Source of the DNA: a virus
Lineage: Duplodnaviria; Caudoviricetes
Virus record (IMG/VR): IMGVR_UViG_3300047463_000230
Span: 1-63,361 of that record
DNA length: 63,361 nucleotides
Reading direction: 5' to 3' (one strand)
A program made the translations under genes and the position numbers. The notes beneath the pieces were generated by a model, which searched no databases, had not been told where the DNA came from, and worked only from the letters and a program-made list of their open reading frames with translations. Below are positions 19,191 to 34,007 of the stretch, in pieces. Positions within the stretch are counted from its first letter, which is position 1. The number at the start of each line of letters is the position of its first letter.

Positions 19191-19763
19191 ATGATTATAG
19201 GGTTCACTGGGTTAGCCGGGTCGGGCAAGTCGACCGCCGCCATGCACTTGGCGTCCGCCCATAAGTTTCAGCGCCTGCGATTTGCTGGCGCCCTGAAGTT
19301 AATGCTGCACGCGATGCACTTGACGCCGGAAGAAACTGATGGTTCACTGAAAGAGGAGCCGTGCAGTTTGCTTGATGGGAAAACCCCGCGCTATGCCATG
19401 CAGACATTGGGGACGGAGTGGGGTCGCGACCTGATATCGCCGGACTTGTGGGTCAACGTCTGGCGGCGCGAGGTCGGGGCCATTTTGTTCAAGCAGCCCA
19501 AGGCCGACATTGTCGTTGACGATGTCCGGTTCGACAACGAGGTACATGCCATCCTTGAACTGGGCGGCATTATAGTCCGCATCACGCGGTATGGCGTGGC
19601 GCGGGCGTCAGGTCATGCGTCCGAGGACGTTCCGGACTTCTGCACAGCCTTTGTCATGAACACCAAGGGCACTGTCAGCGAGTTCCAGGCTGACATTGAC
19701 AGCCAGCTGGATTACTGGCGCCGTCAAGTTTTCCCATTCACCATGAATGAGACAGCACCATGA
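19191..19763 (+). CDS. Deoxynucleoside monophosphate kinase
   Basis: IIGFTGLAGSGKST, FAGALK, PRYAMQTLGTEWGR, DDVRFDNE, H.SE. Confidence 0.85.
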   Translation: MIIGFTGLAGSGKSTAAMHLASAHKFQRLRFAGALKLMLHAMHLTPEETDGSLKEEPCSLLDGKTPRYAMQTLGTEWGRDLISPDLWVNVWRREVGAILFKQPKADIVVDDVRFDNEVHAILELGGIIVRITRYGVARASGHASEDVPDFCTAFVMNTKGTVSEFQADIDSQLDYWRRQVFPFTMNETAP

Positions 19764-23694: not shown

Positions 23695-23925
23695 ATGACG
23701 ACGCATCAGGAAAGACTGGCGGCCATTGACGCGTTGCCACCTGATGTCCGTGGTTGTGTGCACGACTATGGCTATACAGTCGTGGACACTTGCCTACAGC
23801 TTGGCGTGCGCAAGCCCAAGCATATTCGCCACTTGGTCACGACTGTGATGAATGAACTATCGCCGGTCAATGGTGCGTACTCACGGCAAGGTTTTAACAA
23901 CAATCGAGGAGGCAATAATGGCTAA
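23695..23925 (+). CDS. Hypothetical protein
   Basis: RBS; IDALPPDVR..VHDYG. Confidence 0.5.
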   Translation: MTTHQERLAAIDALPPDVRGCVHDYGYTVVDTCLQLGVRKPKHIRHLVTTVMNELSPVNGAYSRQGFNNNRGGNNG

Positions 23926-24532
23926 AAAGGCAGCAAAAAAGCAGAAGCAAGAGGTAAGTCCTGTTGACATCGACATTGAATCAGAGCTTGGATCATTTGT
24001 ACCAGATGCAAATCAACTTTCATCAATTGAGTCAATTGTTCGTCAAGGCGCTGCTTTGATGGAGCAGATTGCCTCAGCTGAGGAATTTCTCAAACAGGCC
24101 AAAGGCGAGCTTCACTTGCTGACTACAAGGACGCTTCCGGATGCAATGGCTTCAGCAGGAACATCTGAGTTTAAGACTGAAAGCGGTCTCAAGGTGACGA
24201 TTAAGGATTTTATCTCTGGGTCGCTTCCCAAAGAAGATGATGCACGGACCGCAGCATTGACTTGGCTCGCAGAAGTTGGTGCGGGTGATATCATCAAGAA
24301 TAAGCTCAGCATTGAGTTTGAAAAGGGAGAGGACAATCTCGCTGGCGATGTCGCAGGCTATGTTGATGGTCTCGGTCTTGACTATGAACAAAAACGTGAT
24401 GTACATCCCCAGACCCTTCAATCATTCGCTCGTGAGCGAATGAAGGCTGGTGAAGATGTCCCGCTGGATATGCTTGGCCTTTATGCCGGCCGAGCTGCCA
24501 AGATTGATTTGCCAAAGAAGAAGGGAGCTTGA
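23918..24532 (+). CDS. Phage replication/recombination-associated protein
   Basis: Coiled coil, LPDAM, WL...G.GDIIK and VHPQTL..F.RE motifs; a type I recall adjacent to SSB genes. Confidence 0.5.
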   Translation: MAKKAAKKQKQEVSPVDIDIESELGSFVPDANQLSSIESIVRQGAALMEQIASAEEFLKQAKGELHLLTTRTLPDAMASAGTSEFKTESGLKVTIKDFISGSLPKEDDARTAALTWLAEVGAGDIIKNKLSIEFEKGEDNLAGDVAGYVDGLGLDYEQKRDVHPQTLQSFARERMKAGEDVPLDMLGLYAGRAAKIDLPKKKGA

Positions 24533-24535
24533 CAA

Positions 24536-25489
24536 ATGTCTCGTATGATAACAATCATCGGCTCTGGAATGGCTGGCCTTCTGGCCGGCAACATGCTATC
24601 TCGAAATGCCATCAGGATCATTGAGGCACAAAAAGAGCTTCCGAACAATCACAGCGCAGTCCTTCGGTTTCGTTCATCTGTTGTCTCGGATGTTCTTGGC
24701 ATTCCATTCAAAAAAGTAAAGCTGATCAAAAGCTATCTGCCATGGAAAAATCGTGTGGCAGATAGCTTGTCATATGCTCACAAGTGCTCAGGCATTTCTC
24801 GCTCGGATCGATCGATCATTACTGAAGAATTTGCTGCCGAACGCTGGATTGCCCCTCCTGATTTGATTGAGCAGATGGCTCAGCCACTTATTGGCGCAAT
24901 TGAATTCGGAAAAACTTTTACTGATGAAAGCATCAACACAATTGATTGCTCTGATCCAATCATTTCAACAATGCCGATGCCTGTTTTGATGAAATTGCTC
25001 GGATACAAGGATGCCCCCAATTTCAATTATGTCGGCGGCGCTAATGTTCACCTTCGGATATCTGACTGTGATGCTTATGCATCGCTCTATGTTCCTGATC
25101 CACTCTACAAGTTCAATCGGGCATCGATCACAGGAGATGATCTCTGTGTTGAATATTCCTTTCCTTCCCACCTTCCTGACAATCAAATCGAGTGGCTTGA
25201 CAAAAACAAATACAGTGAAGCATATGATGCTGCACAACTGTTTGGTTTTCATCGCTCCCGCATCCAGAGCATTTCACTGAGTGCGCAGCGCTATGCCAAG
25301 ATACAGCCCATTGATGAGAATGCTCGAAAAGCATTTATCGCTTGGGCAACTGACAACTTCAACATTTTCTCGCTCGGTCGCTTCGCAACTTGGCGACCGG
25401 GCCTGCTGCTTGATGACCTCGTCCACGATGTCAGGCTTGTCCAGAAATGGATCAACTCTGACCGTTATTCAATGAAGTTCCACCGCTGA
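24536..25489 (+). CDS. FAD/NAD(P)-binding oxidoreductase
   Basis: IIGSGMAGLLA Rossmann motif, E at end of beta-2, C-terminal LGRFATW. Confidence 0.75.
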   Translation: MSRMITIIGSGMAGLLAGNMLSRNAIRIIEAQKELPNNHSAVLRFRSSVVSDVLGIPFKKVKLIKSYLPWKNRVADSLSYAHKCSGISRSDRSIITEEFAAERWIAPPDLIEQMAQPLIGAIEFGKTFTDESINTIDCSDPIISTMPMPVLMKLLGYKDAPNFNYVGGANVHLRISDCDAYASLYVPDPLYKFNRASITGDDLCVEYSFPSHLPDNQIEWLDKNKYSEAYDAAQLFGFHRSRIQSISLSAQRYAKIQPIDENARKAFIAWATDNFNIFSLGRFATWRPGLLLDDLVHDVRLVQKWINSDRYSMKFHR

Positions 25490-25500
25490 AGGAGGCTGTT

Positions 25501-26262
25501 ATGAAAGTTACACTGCTCGACTACACCGGCGCAGGATGCCACATCGACTATGCCATCGACCTCTTGATCTTCACCAAGGGGACACGACTTCAAATGTCGC
25601 CAGCTGCTCGTGATGAAATCAGGAATTGGCCATACGACAAGAAGATTGATGAAATCAAATACATGGCCAATACCATCCCAAGCTCTTGGGAGTTTGTTGA
25701 CTACACCTTCATGATTGAAGGCGTCACCAGAGCTTTTACCCACCAGCTTGTCCGGACTCGCACTGCATCCTTTGCCCAACAAACGATGCGAGTGCTCAAT
25801 GTTGGGGATGGTCCTGGCTGGGACTATCTGACAGGTCCAACGATCGAGCATGAGCCAATTGTTGGCGCCGAAGACCCAACACTCAAGGCTGTTTATGATA
25901 ATTGCATGGAAAATATTTCCAAAACATATAATCATCTCATTGTTGCTGGGGCAGCTATTGAGGATGCGCGCGGCGTTCTCCCGACCAACATTCTCACAAA
26001 CATTGTGATGAAATGCAACATGCGCACCTTCGTCGAGATGGTCCACAAGCGCTCCTCGCCACGGACACAAGGTGAATATCGCAACGTACTTGATGCAATG
26101 AAAACTGCCGCGCTTGGTGCACACCCATGGCTCACACATTTTGTTGAGCGTACTTTTGACAAGGCAGCCAGCGACCTTGACAAGGAAATCAGCGAAATTG
26201 ATGACACAGCCAAGCGCACTAGGATGATTAAGCTTGTGGACCAGCTGAGGGCAAAGCAATGA
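25501..26262 (+). CDS. thyX: Divergent flavin-dependent thymidylate synthase (ThyX-like)
   Basis: F.IEGVTRAFTHQLVRTRTASFAQQTMR, EDARGVLP, N.R, Q.E; RHR changed to RTR and S to T. Confidence 0.75.
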   Translation: MKVTLLDYTGAGCHIDYAIDLLIFTKGTRLQMSPAARDEIRNWPYDKKIDEIKYMANTIPSSWEFVDYTFMIEGVTRAFTHQLVRTRTASFAQQTMRVLNVGDGPGWDYLTGPTIEHEPIVGAEDPTLKAVYDNCMENISKTYNHLIVAGAAIEDARGVLPTNILTNIVMKCNMRTFVEMVHKRSSPRTQGEYRNVLDAMKTAALGAHPWLTHFVERTFDKAASDLDKEISEIDDTAKRTRMIKLVDQLRAKQ

Positions 26263-26714
26263 AAAAGGAATTTGTGCTCATTGATATTGATCATGTCATC
26301 TCTGATGCCGCTTGGCGCGACGAGATGATCGGCGGCGATGGCGGCTGGGATGCCTATCATGCTGAATCGATCAATGATGATCCGTGCCACGACATTGTCC
26401 AACTTGTCAATGCTCTGCATTCCTCCGGATTGCAAGTAATCGGTTTGACGGCCCGCCCTGAGAAATGGCGAATGCTGACCAATTCATGGCTCATTAAGCA
26501 CTCGATACAGCTTGATGAGATATTGATGCGGCCAGACAAAAATTTTTCACCTTCCCCTGAGCTAAAAATCAGCTTGGCACGCGATCTATTCCAAGGCAAA
26601 GTTGCAGATAACGTTGCATTCATTCTTGATGATCGAGATGATGTTGTTGCTGCATTCCGCGCTGAAGGAATCACAGCACTTCAAGTTTTCACTGGCAAGT
26701 CAAAGGAGGCATGA
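26259..26714 (+). CDS. HAD-family phosphatase (PNKP 3'-phosphatase-like)
   Basis: DIDH, LTARPE, LMRP, K, DDRDDVV. Confidence 0.75.
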   Translation: MKKEFVLIDIDHVISDAAWRDEMIGGDGGWDAYHAESINDDPCHDIVQLVNALHSSGLQVIGLTARPEKWRMLTNSWLIKHSIQLDEILMRPDKNFSPSPELKISLARDLFQGKVADNVAFILDDRDDVVAAFRAEGITALQVFTGKSKEA

Positions 26715-27428
26715 ATGACCACTTATAGGAATGTTATCATAACCGGCGCAAGCTCTGGGCTTGGAAAAGAGCTTGCTTCCAAACTCGACGATGGCTACAC
26801 CATAATCACCAATTGGTCACTTCCATTTGTTGATGTGACTGACAAGGATAGCATTGAGGATGCAAAGGAAGCGTTTGCCAGAGGGCTATTTCCTGGTGTT
26901 GACATTCTTATCAACTGTGCCGGTGTCAATCACCTGTCAGCAATTGGCGATCTTGACATTGCCGATTGGGAACAGGTCATCAACACAAATGCTCGTGGCA
27001 TTTGGATGACAACAAAGGCGCTCCTTCCAGTCATGAAGGGCGGGACAGTTCTCAATATTGTTTCAAATGCATCTGGCATGCCAATGACGCATTCATTGGC
27101 ATACAATGCATCAAAGGGCGCCGCTAAGATCATGACTATGCAAATGGCTCGTGAATTGGGGAAAACTCACAATATCACTGTTTTCGGAATTTCACCAAAC
27201 AAGCTCGCTGGCACAGGAATGAGCGAGCAGATTGACAAGCGAGTTTGCGAACTTCGCGGTTGGACGCCAGAAGAGGCAAGGAGCTATCAGCTTGCTGCAC
27301 TTCCTTGTGGCGAGGAAACTAATCCAGAGACTCTTGCCGAATTCATCGCCTTCTTGTTATCATCAAAAGAGCGACACAAATACCTGCAGGGATGCATCAT
27401 TCCTTATGGCGGACCGATGGGAGTTTGA
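26715..27428 (+). CDS. Short-chain dehydrogenase/reductase
   Basis: TGASSGLG, INCAG, S, YNASK. Confidence 0.85.
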   Translation: MTTYRNVIITGASSGLGKELASKLDDGYTIITNWSLPFVDVTDKDSIEDAKEAFARGLFPGVDILINCAGVNHLSAIGDLDIADWEQVINTNARGIWMTTKALLPVMKGGTVLNIVSNASGMPMTHSLAYNASKGAAKIMTMQMARELGKTHNITVFGISPNKLAGTGMSEQIDKRVCELRGWTPEEARSYQLAALPCGEETNPETLAEFIAFLLSSKERHKYLQGCIIPYGGPMGV

Positions 27429-27431
27429 CCA

Positions 27432-27905
27432 ATGAAAATCGATCAGGTTGCTTGGTATGCGCGCGATGAAAAAGCTGCTGATGAACTCAAGATTAAACTT
27501 GGTCTCCAGGATGCCAAGTGGATCATTGATAATGTCACTGGGAAAAGCATTTTTGAGGATGAGACAATCGACATCAACAAGGGCCATCTTCAATTCAATT
27601 ATGACCTCGGAATTGAGTTGGAGATATTGACCTACACATCCGGACAGCATTGGCACCAAAGAACAAATCCTTTTTGGCTCGATAAATCCCAAAGTTTCTT
27701 TCATTCTCATACAGGACTCCACCTTGATCCTGGCGATATTTTTCCTGATATGCCAGGCTGCCTTCTTGTTCAGGAGACATTCACGCTGTCTCATACATCA
27801 GAATATTTGACAACGGGTGCCGGTGCCGGGAGGAAATACCACTACAGGATACATCAGTTGTCTCCTGGCAATTACATCAAGTTCATCAAACGCATTCAAC
27901 CTTGA
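27432..27905 (+). CDS. VOC/glyoxalase-like protein (epimerase?)
   Basis: IDQVA, ELEIL, SHTGLH pattern resembling beta-alpha-beta-beta-beta metal sites. Confidence 0.4.
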   Translation: MKIDQVAWYARDEKAADELKIKLGLQDAKWIIDNVTGKSIFEDETIDINKGHLQFNYDLGIELEILTYTSGQHWHQRTNPFWLDKSQSFFHSHTGLHLDPGDIFPDMPGCLLVQETFTLSHTSEYLTTGAGAGRKYHYRIHQLSPGNYIKFIKRIQP

Positions 27906-27915
27906 GGCAATGACA

Positions 27916-28230
27916 ATGGCTGATGTTGATGATATCTTGATGAATGCGGCTAATACATTTTCTGCCCGCAAAACAGTCTATGGTCATAACTACCTGCGAG
28001 TGGGAGCTGCACTCGCAGGAATGTTTCCTGATGGAATTGTGCTGAGAAGTGAAGATGACTTCAATCGATTTCACATCTTGATGCTGACATTTGTCAAGCT
28101 ATCAAGGTACTGCGTGAACTGGGAGACGGGCGGGCATCAGGACTCAATCCATGATGCTTCAATTTATTGCGCCATGCTTGAAATGATTGATGGAAACATC
28201 AAGGGGAGGCGCGCCAATGAGCAATCATGA
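27916..28230 (+). CDS. All-alpha nucleotide-modification-associated / dNTP pyrophosphatase-like protein (Nmad1/DUF6378-like)
   Basis: R...YG, KLSR, H.DS..D...Y.AM. Confidence 0.55.
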   Translation: MADVDDILMNAANTFSARKTVYGHNYLRVGAALAGMFPDGIVLRSEDDFNRFHILMLTFVKLSRYCVNWETGGHQDSIHDASIYCAMLEMIDGNIKGRRANEQS

Positions 28231-28645
28231 TTTCCTCGATCCAAATACTTGGGGAGAATTCAACAAGGGATTTGAATGGAGGATTTATGGTGATGACTTA
28301 GCTCAAATATGGTCGGTTGTTGATGAAGAAGACTACCATCACCTTTCCCAATGGAAGTGGTCGCCAAAGTGGTCGCGCGGCCAACGTAAATTCTATCTTC
28401 GTCGGAATGTTCAAGTCGGTCGCCGGTCGTTTCGAACTCAAACAACTCTTTATCTTCACGAGGCAGTGATGATGAATGCTGGGATCAAGCGCCCTTCGGA
28501 TGCCCATCTCATCATCGACCATCGGGATGGCAACTCGATGAACTGCCGCCGATCTAATCTGCGTTGGGCAACTCACTCAATGAATGCTCGAAATCTCTTT
28601 GGCTCAAAGGCTGAAGACCACCACTTTGAAAGACTTGGAGTCTGA
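28217..28645 (+). CDS. HNH homing endonuclease-like protein
   Basis: VDEEDY, LH, IDHRDGNSMNCRRSNLRWAT...N. Confidence 0.85.
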   Translation: MSNHDFLDPNTWGEFNKGFEWRIYGDDLAQIWSVVDEEDYHHLSQWKWSPKWSRGQRKFYLRRNVQVGRRSFRTQTTLYLHEAVMMNAGIKRPSDAHLIIDHRDGNSMNCRRSNLRWATHSMNARNLFGSKAEDHHFERLGV

Positions 28646-28646
28646 T

Positions 28647-29204
28647 ATGCTTGCAGTTGTCTTTGATACAGAAACCAACGGCTTGATATCAAACCACTCA
28701 ATCAAGCTCGAAAAGCAGCCCAGCATCATTGAGTTCTATGGCTGTTTGGCTGATCTTTCAACTGGTGAGATAAAGAGCGAGCTTGATCAGCTGATCAAGC
28801 CGCCCGCTCCACTCTTGGAAGTTGTTGCGCCCGGTGAGCGCCGGACCATAACTGAGATCACAGGCATCACCAATGAGATGCTCAATGATAAGCCGAAGTT
28901 TTCGCTTGTGGCGCCTCAAATTGCTCAGTTCATTGAACAGGCCCCGGCAGTCATTGCCCATAATGCCAGTTTCGACCGCGAAATGGTTGACATTGAATTT
29001 GAGCGCCTTGGCCAGCACCTTGTGTGGCCGAGGGTCATTTGTGCTGTTGAAGCAACGATCCATCTTAAAGGCTTTCGACTCAGCTTGACTGCGCTGCATG
29101 AGCACCTTTTCGGAGTCCCCTTTGCTGGTGCTCACCGGGCCAAGCAGGATGTTGCAGCCCTTCTGAAGTGCTGTGTTAAGCTCTATGAGGATGGAGCGCT
29201 GTGA
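28647..29204 (+). CDS. dnaQ: DEDDh 3'-5' exonuclease (Pol III epsilon-like)
   Basis: FDTETNG, AHNASFD, AHRAKQD. Confidence 0.85.
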   Translation: MLAVVFDTETNGLISNHSIKLEKQPSIIEFYGCLADLSTGEIKSELDQLIKPPAPLLEVVAPGERRTITEITGITNEMLNDKPKFSLVAPQIAQFIEQAPAVIAHNASFDREMVDIEFERLGQHLVWPRVICAVEATIHLKGFRLSLTALHEHLFGVPFAGAHRAKQDVAALLKCCVKLYEDGAL

Positions 29205-29485
29205 TGTGTTCTGACATCATCGACAAAGTCGTCAAGCAGCAGGCCCGACTAAATCACGTAGCAATGATGGCTTGCCCAAAGTGCGGCTATGCTTACTCGA
29301 AGGCCATTGATACAAATCGCGCTAAAACAATGACAGAAGTCAGGCGCAATCGCAGCTGCTTGAAATGCTCATCGCAATTCATCACATATGAGATCATCGC
29401 ATCAGACTATGCCATGCTACAATCTTTTCGGCGCTGGACAAAAGAGGAAAGCCAGCGAATTGTTGACACTCAGGAGGTCAAATGA
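29201..29485 (+). CDS. NrdR-like zinc ribbon without ATP cone
   Basis: CPKC....SKAIDT...VRRNRSCLKCSSQFITYE. Confidence 0.65.
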   Translation: MMCSDIIDKVVKQQARLNHVAMMACPKCGYAYSKAIDTNRAKTMTEVRRNRSCLKCSSQFITYEIIASDYAMLQSFRRWTKEESQRIVDTQEVK

Positions 29486-32313
29486 TCCGCTCTGGCTACA
29501 GCTTCCGCACCGCCTTCGGGCACTTGCCTGATGTTCTTAGCCGCGTCATCGAATGCGGCTATAAGGTCGCCCCGTTGGCAGATCGCTGCTCAACATTCGG
29601 CTTTGTGCGATGGACGAAGCTCTGCAAAAAATCCAACATTCGGCCAGTTTACGGGGTCGAGTTGGCAGTGACGGGCGCCTTTGGCACAAAGAAGCCAGTT
29701 GTTGATCATTGGACATTTTTGGCAGTCAACGGACTCAAGGGGATTCACAGTCTTGTTGCTCTGGCCACTGCAAATCCAGATCGCGATCCGAGCTTGAGTT
29801 ATGACCAAGCGCTGGCTGCTGAAGACGTCATAATCATAACAGGTGAAAAAGCACAACTTGATAATTTTCCCCCAGCGCCGAACCTCTATGTCGCCTTGTC
29901 GCCAGCCACGCCCAAAGGTTTCTATCGCGCCGCCAAGGCTGCCGGTCACAAGTTCATCGCTCGTAGCGATAATCTTTATCCGAGGCCAGAAGACAAGGAG
30001 ATATACCGCATTGCGCTTGGGCGGCGCTCAACGACCCAAACATACCCCCAGTACATTTTGACCAAAGATGAATGGTTCGAGGCATTGAAGTGGACTGCTG
30101 ATTCTGCTGATATTGCCGAGGCCTGGGAAAACAAGATTGCAGCCCTTGACAGCTGCAAGGCTGAGTTGCATCGCGCCGAACTTTTGAAGCCAGAGCGTCC
30201 TGACACCTTGCGCAACCTCTGTTTGGCAGGAGCCAAAAAGCTCAAGGTCAATCTCAAGAACAAAATCTATTCAGAACGGCTCAATAGGGAGTTGAAACTA
30301 ATTTCTGAGAAAAACTTTGAAGACTATTTTTACATCATTGCCGATATGATAGCTTGGGCAAAGCAGCACATGATTGTTGGTCCGGCGCGCGGGTCATCTT
30401 GCGGATCGCTTGTGTGCTATTTGCTCGGGATCACCACAATTGATCCGATACCATTCGGATTGATCTTTGAGCGCTTCATTGATATTAATCGAAAGGACTT
30501 GCCAGATATTGATATCGATTTTTCTGATGCTAGGCGCGACCTTGTGTTCAAATATGTCGAAAAGAAGTATGGGCGCGACCGCGTTGCGCGTCTCGGCACT
30601 GTTGGATTGTTCAAGCCGCGCTCGGCATTGAATCAAGCTGGCATCTCGCTCCAGATACCACGCTGGCTTGTTGAGCGGACGCTTGATGGCGTCATCGAGC
30701 GCTCCGGCGGCGATTCACGCGCCATGTTGGCGCTTGAGGACACACTTAATGGCACAGAGATGGGCCGCAAGCTGCTGGATGAATATCCGGAGGCAAGACT
30801 TGCTGGCAAGATGGAGGGGCATCCGAACAATGCATCTCAGCACGCGGCTGGTATTGTCCTGACAGAGCATCCCCTTTCTGAATATGTGGCAATTGACTCG
30901 CGCACTAATTCAGCAATGTGCGACAAGAAAGATGCTGAAGATCTCAACTTGCTGAAAATTGACGCGCTTGGGTTGACACAACTTTCGGTTTTTGAACGGA
31001 CACTTGAACTCATCGGCAAGCCTGCCCGCAGCGGGTTTCTTGAGACGCTTCCGCTTGATGATGTGAAAGCATTTGATGTTCTCAACTCAGGGCACTTCTC
31101 TGGCATATTCCAGTTTACTGGAACAGCACTAATGTCCCTGACACGACAGGTCAAGATAACAAACATCGATGACATCATCTCTATCACTGCTCTGGCTCGG
31201 CCAGGACCAATGGCAACGGGCGGCGCCAACTCCTGGGTCAAGCGTCGCAGCGGTCGCGAAAAGGTAACAACACAACACCCGATGCTGACTGAGCTCACAA
31301 AGGAGACTTATGGCATCGTTGTGTATCAGGAGACTGTAATGAACATTGCTCGCGGCATTGGGCAATTGTCCTGGGAGGATACATCCGAGTTGCGCAAGGC
31401 CATGTCTAAGAGCTTGGGTGATGAGTTCTTCAATGCTTATTGGATCAAGTTTCGTACTGGGGCGCTGGCCAATGGGCTGGAGGAAAAGACTGCTCGGGAA
31501 ATTTGGGATCAAGTCAATACCTTTGGCTCATGGGCCTTCAACAAGGCCCATGCGGTGGCTTATGGCATTGTCAGCTACTGGTGCTGTTGGCTCAAGGCCC
31601 ATCATCCGGTTGAGTTCGCTGCTGCAACACTTGATGCTGAGGCTGATCCGGCTAAACAGATCAAAATGCTACGTGAGCTTGAATCAGAAGGCGTGAAGTA
31701 CAAGCCTGTTGATCCAGATCATTCAACTGACAGATGGAGCTTCAAGACAGAAGGAGACGAGAGGATTCTTATTGGCCCAATAACATCGATCAAAGGCATT
31801 GGCCCTGCATCGATGAGGGAAATCCTCGATGCGCGGAAAAATGGCGAACCATTGCGCGCATCTTTAGCCAAGAAACTGGCTAATTGCAAAACTGAGATCG
31901 ATACACTCTATCCGATCCGTGATAGGATCAAGCAATTGCATCCTGATTTATCTGCTATAAAAATTGTCACGAAGCAGACCGATGTTATCGATGTCAGAGA
32001 TGGAGAGGAAAAAGAGGTCATGATCTTGGGAGTCGCGACTAAAATTGCGCCAGTTGATGAAAATGAAAATATTCGAGTCATGAGGCGCGGCAAGGAGGTT
32101 TCTGGCCCGTCTGCATCTCTCAATTTGTTCTTTGCTGATGACACAGATGAGGTATTTTGCAAAGTTAATCGCTTTAAATTTGAAAGCATCGGGCGAGCAA
32201 TTGTCGACCGTGGCCGGCCCGGAAAGTCCCTTTATGCAATCAAAGGTCGAACGGTCCGAACTTTCCGGATGATTGATGTCCAGCAAGTCCGCTATTTGGG
32301 AGACCTAGAATGA
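29482..32313 (+). CDS. dnaE: DNA polymerase III alpha subunit (family C)
   Basis: GPARGS, FERFI, PDIDIDF, HAAG, KIDALGL, GIFQF, RPGP, YQE, FNKAHA. Confidence 0.92.
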   Translation: MIRSGYSFRTAFGHLPDVLSRVIECGYKVAPLADRCSTFGFVRWTKLCKKSNIRPVYGVELAVTGAFGTKKPVVDHWTFLAVNGLKGIHSLVALATANPDRDPSLSYDQALAAEDVIIITGEKAQLDNFPPAPNLYVALSPATPKGFYRAAKAAGHKFIARSDNLYPRPEDKEIYRIALGRRSTTQTYPQYILTKDEWFEALKWTADSADIAEAWENKIAALDSCKAELHRAELLKPERPDTLRNLCLAGAKKLKVNLKNKIYSERLNRELKLISEKNFEDYFYIIADMIAWAKQHMIVGPARGSSCGSLVCYLLGITTIDPIPFGLIFERFIDINRKDLPDIDIDFSDARRDLVFKYVEKKYGRDRVARLGTVGLFKPRSALNQAGISLQIPRWLVERTLDGVIERSGGDSRAMLALEDTLNGTEMGRKLLDEYPEARLAGKMEGHPNNASQHAAGIVLTEHPLSEYVAIDSRTNSAMCDKKDAEDLNLLKIDALGLTQLSVFERTLELIGKPARSGFLETLPLDDVKAFDVLNSGHFSGIFQFTGTALMSLTRQVKITNIDDIISITALARPGPMATGGANSWVKRRSGREKVTTQHPMLTELTKETYGIVVYQETVMNIARGIGQLSWEDTSELRKAMSKSLGDEFFNAYWIKFRTGALANGLEEKTAREIWDQVNTFGSWAFNKAHAVAYGIVSYWCCWLKAHHPVEFAAATLDAEADPAKQIKMLRELESEGVKYKPVDPDHSTDRWSFKTEGDERILIGPITSIKGIGPASMREILDARKNGEPLRASLAKKLANCKTEIDTLYPIRDRIKQLHPDLSAIKIVTKQTDVIDVRDGEEKEVMILGVATKIAPVDENENIRVMRRGKEVSGPSASLNLFFADDTDEVFCKVNRFKFESIGRAIVDRGRPGKSLYAIKGRTVRTFRMIDVQQVRYLGDLE

Positions 32314-34007
32314 TCCGCGCTGAAGTTGCTGGTGAATTTGCCAATATCATTGGCCCATTCCCATTCCCGTTCGTCCGGTTGCTGAATGGTTTGTCCGGTC
32401 GCAAGCAGTGGAACAGCAGCAAATCAGTTCGTATCTTGGCAACAGCTGGAAATATTCGGCTGCTCAAGAGTTCTGATTATGATATTGAATGGATCGATAA
32501 AAGCGGCGATCTTGCAGCCCAGCAGGAGCTTGAGGCGCTGGCCACTCAACACTCAACAATAGAGCTTCCAAAGAGCGCCTATCAGCCCAAGATCAAGCTC
32601 TATGAATATCAGCAACGCATTCTTGCGCTGTCTTGGAACCGAACGCATTATGCATTGCTTCTTGAAATGGGCCTCGGGAAAACAGCCATTTTGCTCTCAA
32701 CGGCTGGAATGTTGCATGCTGCCGGAAAGGTGACAGGGGTGCTCGTCATCGCGCCCAAGGGCGTCCATCGCCAATGGATTGAGAGTGAAATACCCAAGCA
32801 CATGGGCGAAGGCATTCCGCTCGGCAGCGAGTTTTCTCCTGTCCACACAATCTTGTGGAAGGTTGGCGGCAACGGCATTGATGTCAATAAGGCCAACAAG
32901 CGCGGGCTGACATTCTTCGCAATGAACACTGACTCAATCAGAACAAAGGCTGGTGCTTCAGCAGCAATTCAATTTTTGAATGCCCATCATGGTAGGTCGC
33001 TTCTCATTGCAGATGAATCCCACAATTATAAGACCCCTGGAACAGACCGAACAAAAGCCCTCTTGGCCCTAGGGCAGTATGCTACCTACCGGCGGATTGC
33101 CACTGGCACACCAATCGCTAAAAATATCATTGATGCCTGGACCCAATTCAATTTCCTTGATCCTCGTATTCTTGGTCATAAATATATGACCAGCTTCCGC
33201 GCTCGCTACTGCATTATGGGCGGCTGGGAAGGCAAACAGATCATTGGTCAAAAGAACACTGAGGAGTTCTATGGTCTAATTGCTCCGCATGCTTATCGGT
33301 TGACAAAAGCCGAAGCCATTGACTTGCCCGAAAAAGATTATGTCATCAGGGAATATGAAATGGGCGAGCAGACTGCGCGGCACTACAAGGAGTTGAAGAC
33401 AACATTCATGACAGAATTAGACAATGGCTCGATTGTTGATGTCCCAACAGCAGCAGTTGCGCTGATCCGACTGCAGCAAATTGTCTGCGGATATTTGCCA
33501 ACAGAAGAAGGCATTGAGCATATCAGCAATGAGCGCATCGATCAAGTTATTGAGATCATCAAGCAGGTCAATGGCCCTGTCATCATCTGGACGCGCTTCC
33601 GGGAATCATTGCACAATCTAATCGCTGCACTCGAAAAAGAAGAAGGTGCTGGCTGCGCAGTGAACTATTATGGTGGAACATCGACTACAGATCGCCAGAT
33701 CGCAGTCAAGAGGTTCCTTGATGGTAGTGCCCGGTTTTTCGTTTCCAATCCAGCGGCCGGCGGCGTCGGGCTCAATCTTCAAGGTGAGTGTCGTAATGTG
33801 ATATACTTTGCCAACGACTTCAACTATGTCTCACGCATTCAGTCAGAAGACCGCGTCCACCGGATCGGCACCACCGGATCAGTCACCTATTTCGACTTGG
33901 TAGCGCGCAAGACGATTGACCGGATGATACTGCGCAATCTACGGGCGAAGTCAGACCTGAGCCGATTGACGTTTGACGAGATACGACAGGCAATCACAGA
34001 AATGTGA
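32310..34007 (+). CDS. SNF2-family helicase
   Basis: EMGLGKT, DESH, TGTP, GLNL, QSEDRVHRIG. Confidence 0.88.
   Translation: MIRAEVAGEFANIIGPFPFPFVRLLNGLSGRKQWNSSKSVRILATAGNIRLLKSSDYDIEWIDKSGDLAAQQELEALATQHSTIELPKSAYQPKIKLYEYQQRILALSWNRTHYALLLEMGLGKTAILLSTAGMLHAAGKVTGVLVIAPKGVHRQWIESEIPKHMGEGIPLGSEFSPVHTILWKVGGNGIDVNKANKRGLTFFAMNTDSIRTKAGASAAIQFLNAHHGRSLLIADESHNYKTPGTDRTKALLALGQYATYRRIATGTPIAKNIIDAWTQFNFLDPRILGHKYMTSFRARYCIMGGWEGKQIIGQKNTEEFYGLIAPHAYRLTKAEAIDLPEKDYVIREYEMGEQTARHYKELKTTFMTELDNGSIVDVPTAAVALIRLQQIVCGYLPTEEGIEHISNERIDQVIEIIKQVNGPVIIWTRFRESLHNLIAALEKEEGAGCAVNYYGGTSTTDRQIAVKRFLDGSARFFVSNPAAGGVGLNLQGECRNVIYFANDFNYVSRIQSEDRVHRIGTTGSVTYFDLVARKTIDRMILRNLRAKSDLSRLTFDEIRQAITEM

What the first reader, a model, noticed from the sequence alone, without database searches (positions are those of the whole stretch)
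24536..32313. Candidate uncharacterised DNA base-modification pathway feeding a phage-encoded Pol III
Seen: a tightly coupled operon of FAD oxidoreductase, divergent ThyX, HAD phosphatase, SDR, VOC-like protein, Nmad/DUF6378-like all-alpha protein, HNH, DnaQ, NrdR-like and DnaE, plus a dNMP kinase at 19191. Known: phages that modify bases before replication combine a thymidylate-synthase homologue, a kinase, a pyrophosphatase that removes the canonical dNTP, and their own polymerase. SDR, epimerase and flavoenzyme genes are not needed for plain dTMP synthesis. Inference: together they make a sugar- or polyol-like C5 substituent on dUMP/dCMP, giving restriction/CRISPR resistance. The layout recalls PB1/BcepF1-like myoviruses (from memory, unverified).
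Basis: partly seen in the sequence, partly recalled or inferred. Interest (0 to 1): 0.85.

Follow-up and report, generated by a model that had tools for sequence, protein, structure and literature searches.

The report
Candidate thymidine-modification cassette beside phage polymerase
An uncultured PB1-like phage carries, just ahead of its own DNA polymerase, a conserved phage-only enzyme set (orphan flavoprotein, altered ThyX, phosphatase, reductase, glyoxalase-fold protein) that is a plausible but unproven source of the sugar-like modified thymine recently found in related Pseudomonas phages.

Summary
The gene cluster is real, at the stated coordinates, and conserved in order in 29 uncultured viral contigs and in cultured Wifcevirus and Carpasinavirus phages. 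It is the accessory half of the PB1-like DnaQ/DnaE replication module.
- The "NrdR-like" gene is only a zinc ribbon.
- The all-alpha protein is about 106 aa. It is the detached C-terminal domain of the Pbunavirus "polynucleotide kinase".
- No pyrophosphatase was found.

The ThyX belongs to a subfamily that has lost three signature residues, and it travels with an orphan, virus-restricted flavoprotein. This also holds in a Rhizobium jumbo phage where no DnaE was detected.

The polyol/sugar modification idea fits two papers. A 2025 preprint reports sugar-alcohol and pentose-type thymidines in Pbunavirus F8 and 14-1, with no genes assigned. [quoted passage not shown]

No result here links any gene to the modification.
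- The reported TG context is hard to explain by a pool enzyme.
- F8 and 14-1 differ in modification, yet their flavoprotein and ThyX are 94-97% identical.
- SDR/VOC are absent from Pbunavirus.

I put the modification reading at 0.4 and plain dTMP supply at 0.35. This scan has already flagged the same cassette on other DNA at least eight times.

The parts
19191..19763 (+). Deoxynucleoside monophosphate kinase, 5 kb upstream of the cluster and not part of the conserved cassette
   Evidence: phrog_139 at 7.8e-44. Pfam DNMK at 1.9e-9. Not found within 10 kb of the cassette in the related loci.
23852..24532 (+). DUF7307 (Pam3 gp33-like) protein, a flank marker of the PB1-like module
   Evidence: Pfam PF23984 at 4.5e-25. 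Homologues sit beside the flavoprotein in many related loci.
24536..25489 (+). Orphan FAD-binding flavoprotein (phrog_4828), virus-restricted as far as tested
   Evidence: - Family: phrog_4828 at 4.6e-53.
- Relatives: 2714 at E<=1e-5 among 3576 candidates.
- Conserved motifs: invariant GxGxxG and a C-terminal GR..W.P motif.
- Structure: AF2 pLDDT 89.3. Foldseek gives FAD amine oxidases, PHBH-type hydroxylases and UDP-galactopyranose mutases at TMq 0.5-0.66.
- Cellular genomes: only 3 loci in 185,579 species genomes, all phage-like MAG contigs.
25501..26262 (+). ThyX-family protein of a variant subfamily (R-T/S/N-R in place of RHR; both upstream His and the signature Tyr replaced)
   Evidence: Pfam Thy1 at 3.2e-32. 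TIGR02170 scores 89.5 bits against a cut-off of 87.9.
26259..26714 (+). HAD phosphatase of the polynucleotide-kinase-phosphatase type; corresponds to the N-terminal domain of Pbunavirus gp59
   Evidence: Pfam HAD_PNKP at 3.1e-15. phrog_415 at 3.9e-30 and phrog_4889 positions 7-149 of 339. The DxDxV, T and DD motifs can be read in the translation.
26715..27428 (+). Classical short-chain dehydrogenase/reductase (FabG-like, phrog_3142)
   Evidence: adh_short at 7.3e-34. phrog_3142 at 3.8e-41. It scores below every NCBIfam cut-off. TGxxxGxG, NCAG and YxxxK can be read in the translation.
27432..27905 (+). VOC/glyoxalase-fold protein with conserved His/Glu positions
   Evidence: - No Pfam, PHROG or PDB sequence hit.
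- Atlas structural matches to Glyoxalase_4/Glyoxalase clusters, TM 0.64-0.69.
- 150 relatives at E<=0.001 among 164 candidates.
- Invariant E62, E64, H93, H97, Q114 and H121.
27910..28230 (+). Four-helix protein of about 106 aa; the detached C-terminal domain of the Pbunavirus/Wifcevirus HAD fusion; DUF6378-like only at sub-threshold level
   Evidence: - phrog_4889 positions 237-324 of 339, 1e-16.
- Start inferred.
- AF2 pLDDT 91.2.
- No PDB match with E<=0.001.
- BFVD matches only to C-termini of HAD proteins of phages Kyle, MTx and EC150.
- DUF6378 at E 0.17.
28217..28645 (+). HNH endonuclease, a variable insertion
   Evidence: Pfam HNH_3 at 2.4e-8. A homologue is present between the four-helix gene and DnaQ in 3 of 29 related loci (L007, L008, L013), and elsewhere in L016.
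28647..29204 (+). DnaQ-like 3'-5' proofreading exonuclease
   Evidence: RNase_T at 5e-17. phrog_192 at 1e-36. Likely start read.
29201..29485 (+). Small zinc-ribbon protein (NrdR N-terminal ribbon only)
   Evidence: Zn_ribbon_NrdR at 2.2e-12. TIGR00244 scores 32.9 bits against a cut-off of 124.65 and matches model positions 1-44 of 147.
29482..32313 (+). DnaE-type DNA polymerase III alpha
   Evidence: DNA_pol3_alpha at 1.1e-66 and the finger domain at 6.2e-37. phrog_405 at 5.3e-227.
32310..34007 (+). SNF2-family helicase that closes the module
   Evidence: phrog_62 at 5.4e-112. SNF2-rel_dom at 9.1e-18.

Best explanation
The cluster is this phage's copy of a conserved, virus-restricted accessory cassette that travels with the PB1-like DnaQ/DnaE replication module.

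**Proposed function (inferred, not shown).** The cassette makes or tailors a non-canonical thymidine carrying a sugar- or polyol-type group on the C5 carbon.

**Proposed steps (all inferred).**
- The variant ThyX still binds FAD and dUMP and builds the flavin-N5 one-carbon adduct, giving the exocyclic-methylene dUMP intermediate.
- The histidines and the tyrosine of the canonical pocket are replaced. The intermediate is therefore proposed to be captured by water or by a hydroxyl of a sugar or polyol, rather than reduced to a methyl group.
- The orphan flavoprotein either prepares the donor or handles the redox step.
- The HAD phosphatase, with its four-helix partner, removes a phosphate from a sugar-phosphate adduct or from a competing nucleotide.
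- In this clade, as in Wifcevirus and Carpasinavirus, the SDR and VOC enzymes further tailor the side chain by keto-reduction, epimerisation or isomerisation.
- The phage dNMP kinase and host kinases make the triphosphate, and DnaE/DnaQ copy the DNA.

**Shown.** Gene identities and folds, conservation of gene order, the signature changes in ThyX, and the co-occurrence of the flavoprotein with the variant ThyX.

**Taken from papers.** Relatives carry modified thymidine and resist restriction.
For: **1. Shared module.**
- The core flavoprotein - variant ThyX - HAD/four-helix - DnaQ - DnaE - SNF2 order is found in Pbunavirus PB1, phiDCL-PA6, F8 and 14-1.
- The full set including SDR and VOC is found in Wifcevirus FEC19 and Xanthomonas phage Carpasina.
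- It is also found in 29 of 29 VOC-seeded IMG/VR loci.

**2. Relatives are modified or restriction-resistant.**
- The preprint PMC12191111 (passages and section 8 read) reports novel nucleosides of 362 and 390 U replacing about a quarter of thymidines in F8 and 14-1.
[quoted passage not shown] **3. The ThyX signature is changed across the subfamily.**
- 25 of 25 sequences (window plus 24 relatives) have R-T/S-R, not RHR. The Rhizobium and Vibrio phage copies have R-N-R.
- Against six phage ThyX from genomes outside the flavoprotein group, 5 of 6 keep the upstream His, the EH, RHR and S.RY. The variant group has Ile, Phe, Thr/Asn and Val/Ala/Ile at those places.
- The arginines aligned to the Mycobacterium and Corynebacterium enzymes are kept.

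**4. Flavoprotein and variant ThyX occur together or not at all.**
- Of 22 loci that reach far enough upstream, 21 have the ThyX and 20 have both. The 21st locus ends at the ThyX start. One complete genome (L032) lacks both.
- In the phage collection, 361 records hold the flavoprotein and 378 hold a near-full-length variant ThyX, out of 50,697 records.
- The triad also occurs in a 206-kb Rhizobium jumbo phage in which no DnaE was detected.
- It occurs in 40-kb Vibrio and Ralstonia phages as well.

**5. No other route is visible in the window.** No ThyA, Tet/JBP or GT2 glycosyltransferase was found.

**6. Chemical precedent (PMC8989533, passages).** ThyX forms an exocyclic methylene that is normally reduced. 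Nucleophile capture of such a methylene is how other thymidine hypermodifications form.
Against: - No experiment or computation here ties any of these genes to a modification, and this phage's DNA has not been analysed.
- The preprint infers that only T in a TG context is modified. The inference rests on ten restriction enzymes. An enzyme acting on the nucleotide pool cannot by itself give sequence context, and no DNA-binding or DNA-acting domain was recognised in the cassette.
- The ThyX still passes the NCBIfam thyX equivalog cut-off, though only just (89.5 against 87.9 bits), and keeps the aligned arginines. It may therefore be an ordinary dTMP synthase.
- One of the six comparison ThyX (mycobacteriophage Hawkeye) also lacks the histidines. 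The tblastn count lists no Mycobacterium phage among the ten organism names it shows (9 further names are not shown). Hawkeye's own genome was not searched for the flavoprotein.
- F8 and 14-1 carry different modifications, yet their flavoprotein (97.3%) and ThyX (93.8%) are nearly identical.
- SDR and VOC are absent from the modules of the only phages with a measured modification.
- Conversely, one complete relative keeps HAD-SDR-VOC-four-helix without the flavoprotein or ThyX. The cassette is therefore not one indivisible pathway.
- A later check recorded in this scan's earlier findings priced the same bold reading at 33/100.
Confidence: 0.4

Rival explanations
1. This is ordinary nucleotide supply. 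The ThyX makes dTMP for fast replication, and the flavoprotein, HAD phosphatase, SDR and VOC are unrelated or loosely related accessory genes (flavin or NADPH handling, nucleotide-pool trimming, DNA-end repair). They are inherited together only because they sit inside the replication module.
For: - Thy1 at 3.2e-32, and TIGR02170 just above its cut-off.
- The aligned dUMP/FAD-site arginines are kept.
- Many phages carry ThyX: 543 records match.
- In most loci the cassette is syntenic with DnaQ/DnaE, so shared descent can explain much of the co-occurrence.
- The HAD is of the polynucleotide-kinase-phosphatase type that acts on DNA ends.
- SDR/VOC are dispensable in Pbunavirus.
- The earlier check in this scan found that this reading fits.
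Against: - Canonical ThyX needs no partner flavoprotein (established knowledge, recalled). Here an orphan, strongly conserved flavoprotein (48 invariant columns in 39 sequences) accompanies the variant ThyX in every lineage examined. This includes a jumbo phage in which no DnaE was detected.
- The replaced signature residues are fixed across the subfamily.
- This reading leaves the Pbunavirus modification and the Wifcevirus restriction resistance without any candidate genes.
Confidence: 0.35
2. The cassette has a different target. It modifies or degrades something other than DNA thymine, for example cytosine nucleotides, host or phage RNA (as the flavin-dependent uridine methylases TrmFO and MnmEG do), a cofactor, or a host immune signalling molecule.
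For: - Flavin-dependent C5 chemistry on uridine is known in RNA (passages of PMC8989533).
- The flavoprotein has no assignable subfamily.
- HAD-SDR-VOC-four-helix can exist without the ThyX and flavoprotein, next to a YfbR-like nucleotidase, a deoxyribosyltransferase-like protein and a SLOG protein. This points to some nucleotide chemistry independent of ThyX.
Against: - The position directly upstream of the proofreading exonuclease and polymerase is conserved in 29 of 29 loci. This argues for a link to DNA synthesis.
- No RNA-binding or signalling-related domain was found.
Confidence: 0.15

Closest known systems
Replication modules of Pbunavirus (PB1, F8, 14-1), Wifcevirus (FEC19) and Carpasinavirus (Carpasina)
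   Same: The gene families and order are the same: flavoprotein, variant ThyX, HAD plus four-helix domain, (SDR, VOC), DnaQ, DnaE, SNF2 helicase. Protein identities to the window are 29-49%.
   Different: - In the window and its 29 uncultured relatives the HAD and the four-helix domain are separate genes, with SDR and VOC between them. In the cultured phages they are fused, and SDR/VOC follow the fusion or are absent.
- The window adds an HNH gene and a zinc-ribbon gene.
- No nucleotide-level match to any of the 50,697 phage records.
Hypermodified thymidine of Pbunavirus F8 and 14-1 (Yee et al. 2025 preprint, PMC12191111)
   Same: The phage lineage and core cassette are shared. A sugar-alcohol or pentose-type substituent is the kind of product that SDR/VOC/HAD chemistry would suit.
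   Different: - The paper assigns no genes.
- The modification is reported in a TG context and on about a quarter of T.
- Those phages lack SDR and VOC.
- Nothing is known about this window's DNA.
Canonical flavin-dependent thymidylate synthase ThyX (Thermotoga, Mycobacterium, Helicobacter, PBCV-1 structures)
   Same: Thy1 family match, and profile hits to 23 solved ThyX sequences. The aligned arginines are conserved.
   Different: RHR is R-T/S/N-R. The two upstream histidines are Ile and Phe. S.RY is T/S.R-V/A/I. The roles of these residues in folate and flavin contacts are recalled, not tested here.
5-hydroxymethyl-dU based thymidine hypermodification (phages M6, ViI, PaMx11, PhiW-14; Lee et al. 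2021, PMC8989533)
   Same: The chemistry has the same logic: one carbon is added at C5 of dUMP and the exocyclic methylene is captured by a nucleophile. An FAD enzyme takes part in PaMx11.
   Different: - The window has no ThyA-type hydroxymethylase and no Tet/JBP.
- The flavoprotein shows only a generic N-terminal match to PaMx11 gp47 (hhalign probability 31%).
- The DNA kinase and the aGPT-Pplase were not searched with models of their own.
5-(4,5-dihydroxypentyl)uracil of Bacillus phage SP-15 (Kropinski et al. 2018, PMC5977210)
   Same: A polyol-type chain sits on C5 of uracil. The phage encodes two Thy1-family proteins, one directly after an SDR gene. Reference titles in that paper say the base is made as a triphosphate and takes label from ribose.
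   Different: No BLAST similarity at E<=1 between the window's ThyX, SDR, flavoprotein, HAD or VOC and the 45-kb SP-15 stretch. The SP-15 assignment is the authors' untested hypothesis.

Membership tests
ThyX (flavin-dependent thymidylate synthase, Pfam Thy1 / TIGR02170) | Match to the family models | tested here: met
   Thy1 scores 112.3 bits against a cut-off of 24.8. TIGR02170 scores 89.5 against 87.9, so it barely passes.
ThyX (flavin-dependent thymidylate synthase, Pfam Thy1 / TIGR02170) | ThyX signature RHR...S.RY and the upstream H.S..EH | tested here: not met
   The window reads R-T-R, T.R-V, and I..S..E-F. 25 of 25 subfamily members lack RHR. 5 of 6 comparison phage ThyX have the canonical residues.
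ThyX (flavin-dependent thymidylate synthase, Pfam Thy1 / TIGR02170) | Makes dTMP from dUMP with methylene-tetrahydrofolate, FAD and NADPH | not testable with these tools
   Needs an enzyme assay or complementation of a thyA mutant.
PB1-like accessory cassette of the DnaQ/DnaE replication module | Flavoprotein (phrog_4828) + variant ThyX + HAD with four-helix domain directly upstream of DnaQ and DnaE, followed by an SNF2 helicase | tested here: met
5-hmdU-type thymidine hypermodification system | ThyA-family dUMP hydroxymethylase or Tet/JBP dioxygenase | tested here: not met
   PF00303 and PF12851 have no match in the window at E<=0.1. The PF00303 control hit 10 of 14 genomes; the PF12851 control hit 1 of 14, below the family's cut-off.
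5-hmdU-type thymidine hypermodification system | 5-hmdU DNA kinase and aGPT-Pplase transferase | not tested
   No dedicated model was run. The PHROG and Pfam scans of 40 window ORFs named none. About 55 further ORFs of the window, mostly in the structural arms, were not scanned.
UDP-galactopyranose mutase (Pfam GLF) | Sequence match to the family and the mutase fold | tested here: inconclusive
   No Pfam GLF hit. Foldseek places mutases among the top hits, but no better than amine oxidases and hydroxylases. hhalign against E. coli Glf gives probability 48.5% over 67 columns.
VOC / glyoxalase superfamily (157-aa protein) | Paired beta-alpha-beta-beta-beta fold with metal-binding His/Glu | tested here: met
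   Atlas structure matches at TM 0.64-0.69 to Glyoxalase_4/Glyoxalase clusters. His and Glu are invariant in 37 sequences. No sequence-model hit.
Classical SDR | TGxxxGxG, NNAG-like motif, Ser and YxxxK | tested here: met
   The motifs can be read in the translation. adh_short at 7.3e-34.
NrdR transcriptional repressor | Zinc ribbon plus ATP-cone | tested here: not met
   Only model positions 1-44 of 147 match, at 32.9 bits against a cut-off of 124.65. The protein has 94 aa.
All-alpha NTP pyrophosphohydrolase (MazG / dimeric dUTPase / HisE) for the 106-aa protein | Fold and acidic metal-binding motifs | tested here: not met
   No PDB match with E<=0.001. A HisE structure appears only at E 5, TM 0.37-0.42. 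The profile against PDB sequences gave nothing.

The most novel reading that the evidence does not exclude
The R-T/S/N-R ThyX and its orphan flavoprotein partner form a new kind of flavin-dependent pyrimidine C5-alkylating system. It would attach a sugar-derived polyol (or hand over a hydroxymethyl group for it) to dUMP at the nucleotide level. This would be the long-missing type of enzymology behind polyol-bearing uracils such as SP-15's dihydroxypentyluracil and the Pbunavirus sugar-alcohol thymidine. SDR and VOC would then diversify the side chain in this clade.
Probability: 0.2. Interest if true: 0.85.

Novelty: new variant of a known kind. Interest (0 to 1): 0.55.

Why it matters
Pbunavirus phages are among the most used therapeutic phages against Pseudomonas aeruginosa. 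Their DNA was shown only in 2025 to carry a sugar-like thymidine, with no biosynthetic genes known.

A conserved, virus-restricted cassette with an altered ThyX is a concrete and easily testable candidate. Relatives with the full gene set (Wifcevirus of the BASEL collection) grow on engineered E. coli K-12 (PMC11990801).

If the cassette is responsible, it would add flavin-based chemistry to the known routes of DNA hypermodification. It would also explain the restriction resistance of a large phage group.

This window's own contribution is comparative:
- a split HAD/four-helix arrangement with SDR and VOC between the two genes;
- a complete relative that keeps those four genes without the ThyX and flavoprotein;
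- the flavoprotein-ThyX-HAD triad in a jumbo phage where no DnaE was detected.

Tried and rejected
- **Nucleotide search against phages:** the cluster has no match in 50,697 phage records.
- **Sequence searches against solved structures:**
  - the flavoprotein alone gave nothing;
  - its profile matched only the GxGxxG start;
  - the VOC and four-helix profiles gave nothing meaningful.
- **Fold of the four-helix protein:** no PDB match with E<=0.001, so the idea that it is a MazG-like pyrophosphatase was dropped.
- **Flavoprotein against PaMx11 gp47:** only a generic N-terminal match, probability 31%. Kinship with the known flavin-dependent lyase was dropped.
- **Flavoprotein against E. coli Glf:** probability 48.5% over 67 columns, too weak to call it a mutase.
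- **SP-15 comparison:** no BLAST similarity, so it is kept only as a chemical precedent.
- **F8 versus 14-1:** the most divergent gene in the 20-kb module is ORF70 (56.9% identity), which has no Pfam family above its curated cut-off. The difference in modification could not be mapped.
- **E-to-Q change before the signature:** I first read it as diagnostic. One search shows that canonical phage ThyX also have Q there, so I dropped it.
- **Upstream-His alignment to solved ThyX:** the HMMER alignments stopped short of that residue. The replacement is shown only by my MAFFT alignment with phage ThyX.
- **Promoter and terminator scans:** no more sites than in shuffles.
- **Rfam and tRNA scans of the window:** empty.
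- **Literature searches that found nothing:** ThyX + His53 + folate; ThyX + RHRxxS. The three DUF6378 papers were seen only as a search listing.
- **Searches behind the statement that no paper assigns genes to the Pbunavirus modification:**
- **Complex prediction on ThyX with the flavoprotein:** returned 'no answer'. This is neither for nor against binding.
- **Supplements:** not opened. The Extended Data of PMC12191111 (restriction-enzyme table, fragmentation spectra) and S2 Table of PMC11990801 may bear on the TG-context and restriction claims.

Full report
**What the window is.** The window is a whole IMG/VR virus record of 63,361 bases that CheckV rates complete. It has no nucleotide-level relative among 50,697 phage records. 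Its polymerase, flavoprotein and ThyX find protein-level relatives at 30-49% identity in these groups:
- Pbunavirus, Wifcevirus, Serratia MyoSmar-like, Xanthomonas Carpasina-like and Pantoea phages;
- 40-kb Vibrio, Cronobacter and Ralstonia phages.

**The observation.** Eleven genes lie on the + strand between 24536 and 34007. Spacing runs from a 14-base overlap to an 11-base gap (coordinates).
- The flavoprotein (24536-25489) has no Pfam family but matches phrog_4828 at 4.6e-53.
  - With 39 aligned relatives it folds confidently, at pLDDT 89.3.
  - The fold is the FAD-binding fold shared by amine oxidases, p-hydroxybenzoate-type hydroxylases and UDP-galactopyranose mutases. TM normalised to the query is 0.5-0.66, and no subfamily stands out.
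  - By sequence, only the GxGxxG start matches solved structures.
- The ThyX (25501-26262) matches Thy1 at 3.2e-32 and just clears the NCBIfam equivalog cut-off, at 89.5 against 87.9 bits.
- The HAD phosphatase (26259-26714) is of the polynucleotide-kinase-phosphatase type, and its catalytic motifs are intact.
- The SDR (26715-27428) has the classical motifs but falls below every NCBIfam family cut-off.
- The 157-aa protein (27432-27905) has no sequence family. Its Atlas model matches glyoxalase/VOC clusters at TM 0.64-0.69, and His and Glu positions are invariant in 37 relatives.
- The next ORF was listed from 27817 but most likely starts at ATG 27910, because relatives are 96-120 aa and align from there.
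  - It is a confident four-helix protein, pLDDT 91.2.
  - It has no PDB counterpart.
  - In the viral structure library it matches only the C-terminal domains of HAD proteins of phages Kyle, MTx and EC150.
  - Its DUF6378 likeness is sub-threshold (E 0.17; Atlas).
- HNH, DnaQ, a 94-aa zinc ribbon, DnaE and an SNF2 helicase follow. The zinc ribbon matches NrdR positions 1-44 of 147 only.
- A dNMP kinase lies at 19191.
- I found no pyrophosphatase.

**Conservation.** I seeded a scan of IMG/VR with the VOC family alone, which returned 29 loci. tblastn with the window's proteins gave the following.
- SDR, VOC and the four-helix gene were found in 29 of 29 loci, in the same order. DnaQ follows wherever the locus reaches that far.
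- Of the 22 loci that reach far enough upstream, 21 carry the ThyX and 20 carry both ThyX and flavoprotein. The 21st ends at the ThyX start.
- One locus, L032, lacks both. Its record is complete, with terminal repeats, and profile searches of all 81,984 bases found neither gene.
- In that phage the genes upstream of HAD-SDR-VOC-four-helix encode a YfbR-like HD nucleotidase, a deoxyribosyltransferase-like protein and a SLOG protein.

Cultured phages compare as follows.
- Wifcevirus FEC19 and Xanthomonas phage Carpasina have the full set, with the HAD and four-helix parts fused and SDR-VOC after them.
- Pbunavirus PB1, phiDCL-PA6, F8 and 14-1 have the flavoprotein, the ThyX and the fusion, but no SDR or VOC in the module.

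The cassette therefore has three sub-modules: flavoprotein with ThyX, HAD with the four-helix domain, and SDR with VOC.

**Is the link between flavoprotein and ThyX more than shared descent with the polymerase?**
- In the 206-kb Rhizobium phage RHph_TM2_3B (Kleczkowskaviridae), three genes lie within 7 kb among dUTPase and ribonucleotide reductase genes. These are a flavoprotein (30% identity), a variant ThyX (42%) and a HAD protein with the four-helix C-terminus (41%).
- A search of the whole Rhizobium phage record with the window's DnaE found nothing. That empty search had no positive control.
- The pair also sits in 40-kb Vibrio and Ralstonia phages.
- A pattern-based scan of one genome for each of 185,579 prokaryote species found the flavoprotein in 3 contigs only. 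All three are MAG contigs carrying the same phage module. The scan used two peptide patterns, so distant cellular relatives could be missed.

**The ThyX signature.**
- HMMER alignments to Mycobacterium and Corynebacterium ThyX structures show R-T-R where they have RHR, and T.R-V where they have S.RY.
- All 25 sequences of the subfamily that I aligned have R-T/S-R. The Rhizobium and Vibrio phage copies have R-N-R.
- I aligned the subfamily with six phage ThyX from genomes outside the flavoprotein group. Five of the six (Bacillus, Clostridium, Acidovorax, Salmonella, Haloarcula viruses) keep an upstream His, the E-H pair, RHR and S.RY. The subfamily has Ile, Phe, Thr/Asn and Val/Ala/Ile there.
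- The sixth, mycobacteriophage Hawkeye, has RQR and no histidines, so such variants are not confined to this group.
- That these residues line the folate/flavin/dUMP pocket is recalled from the ThyX literature. My two searches for it found nothing.
- The arginines aligned to the solved enzymes are conserved.

**Literature.**
- The preprint PMC12191111 (passages and all of section 8 read) reports the following.
  - F8 DNA resists five of ten restriction enzymes, all with TG in their sites.
  - F8 and 14-1 contain novel nucleosides of 362 and 390 U that replace about a quarter of thymidines.
  - No biosynthetic gene is named, and the discussion says such phages can lack known modification genes.
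- My own arithmetic: both masses fit either an ether on hydroxymethyl-dU or a carbon-linked chain on dU. Mass alone does not choose between them.
- PMC8989533 (passages) sets out that ThyX passes a carbon from flavin N5 to uracil C5. This gives an exocyclic methylene that is then reduced. Nucleophile capture of such a methylene explains other thymidine hypermodifications.
- PMC5977210 (passages) describes SP-15.
  - Its DNA carries 5-(4,5-dihydroxypentyl)uracil.
  - It encodes two Thy1-family proteins, and the authors guess that one is a hydroxymethyluridylate synthase.
  - In the record that gene directly follows an SDR gene, but neither resembles the window's genes by BLAST.
- PMC13326640 was seen as abstract and outline only.
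- Four searches found no paper that assigns genes to the Pbunavirus modification.

**Weighing.**

For a role in base modification:
- the only enzymes of nucleotide type shared by the modified Pbunavirus phages and their restriction-resistant relatives are in this cassette;
- the ThyX has a fixed, altered signature;
- its flavoprotein partner is orphan, strongly conserved and virus-restricted, and follows it into unrelated genomes;
- SDR, VOC and HAD are the usual tools of sugar and polyol chemistry;
- the window has no ThyA, Tet/JBP or GT2 enzyme that would offer another route.

Against:
- no result links gene to product;
- a TG context calls for an enzyme that reads DNA, and none is recognisable here;
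- the ThyX may simply make dTMP;
- F8 and 14-1 differ in modification while their flavoprotein and ThyX are 97.3% and 93.8% identical, although the HAD fusion is only 80.8%;
- SDR/VOC are missing where the modification was measured;
- L032 shows that the cassette is separable.

I put the modification reading at 0.4, plain dTMP supply at 0.35 and another target at 0.15.

**Earlier findings of this scan.** After forming my reading I looked up earlier notes.
- The same cassette has been reported on at least eight other windows (coliphages of Wifcevirus and uncultured phages), with the same candidate reading.
- A later check priced the bold reading at 33/100. It cited the TG context, restriction of the cassette to the PB1-like family, and shared descent with the replication module.
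- I tested two of those grounds. The flavoprotein-ThyX-HAD triad is not confined to the PB1-like family or to a DnaE neighbourhood, which weakens them somewhat. The TG objection stands.
- The lead to the SP-15 paper came from those notes.

**Verdict.** This window is a new, rearranged variant of a cassette already present in sequenced phages, and the scan has seen it before. Its value lies in the comparative points above and in the fact that the question is directly testable in cultured relatives.

Noticed in passing
window 24001-34000: The replication/cassette block has 47-50% G+C, against 56-60% for the early-gene flanks on either side and 59-65% in the structural arms. This would fit exchange of the whole module between phages, or different constraints on it.
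   Followed up: no
L032:4516-8614 (IMG/VR record of 81,984 bases with terminal repeats): A complete relative lacks the flavoprotein and ThyX. Upstream of HAD-SDR-VOC-four-helix it carries a YfbR-like HD 5'-deoxynucleotidase, a nucleoside 2-deoxyribosyltransferase-like protein and a YspA-type SLOG protein. SP-15 also encodes an HD 5'-nucleotidase and a deoxyribosyltransferase near its SDR-Thy1 pair.
   Followed up: partly
L037:15997-17301 and L038:15894-17090 (Pbunavirus 14-1 and F8, ORF70): ORF70 is by far the most divergent gene between F8 and 14-1 in the 20-kb module (56.9% identity, 434 against 398 aa). It has no Pfam family above its curated cut-off. These two phages are reported to differ in their thymidine modification.
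   Followed up: partly
window 28217-28645 and 29201-29485: An HNH endonuclease gene and a stand-alone NrdR-type zinc-ribbon gene are inserted on either side of DnaQ. An HNH homologue is found in that position in only 3 of 29 related loci. The ribbon gave a weak hit in only 1 of 29.
   Followed up: partly
L048 (Mycobacterium phage Hawkeye gene 78): A 364-aa 'ThyX-like' protein of an actinophage also lacks the signature histidines (RQR; no upstream His) and resembles the variant subfamily around the motif. No Mycobacterium phage is among the ten organism names shown for the flavoprotein search. Hawkeye's genome itself was not searched.
   Followed up: no
window, whole: No tRNA genes and no Rfam family at gathering threshold anywhere in the 63 kb. 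They did not reach Rfam's gathering score in this scan.
   Followed up: no
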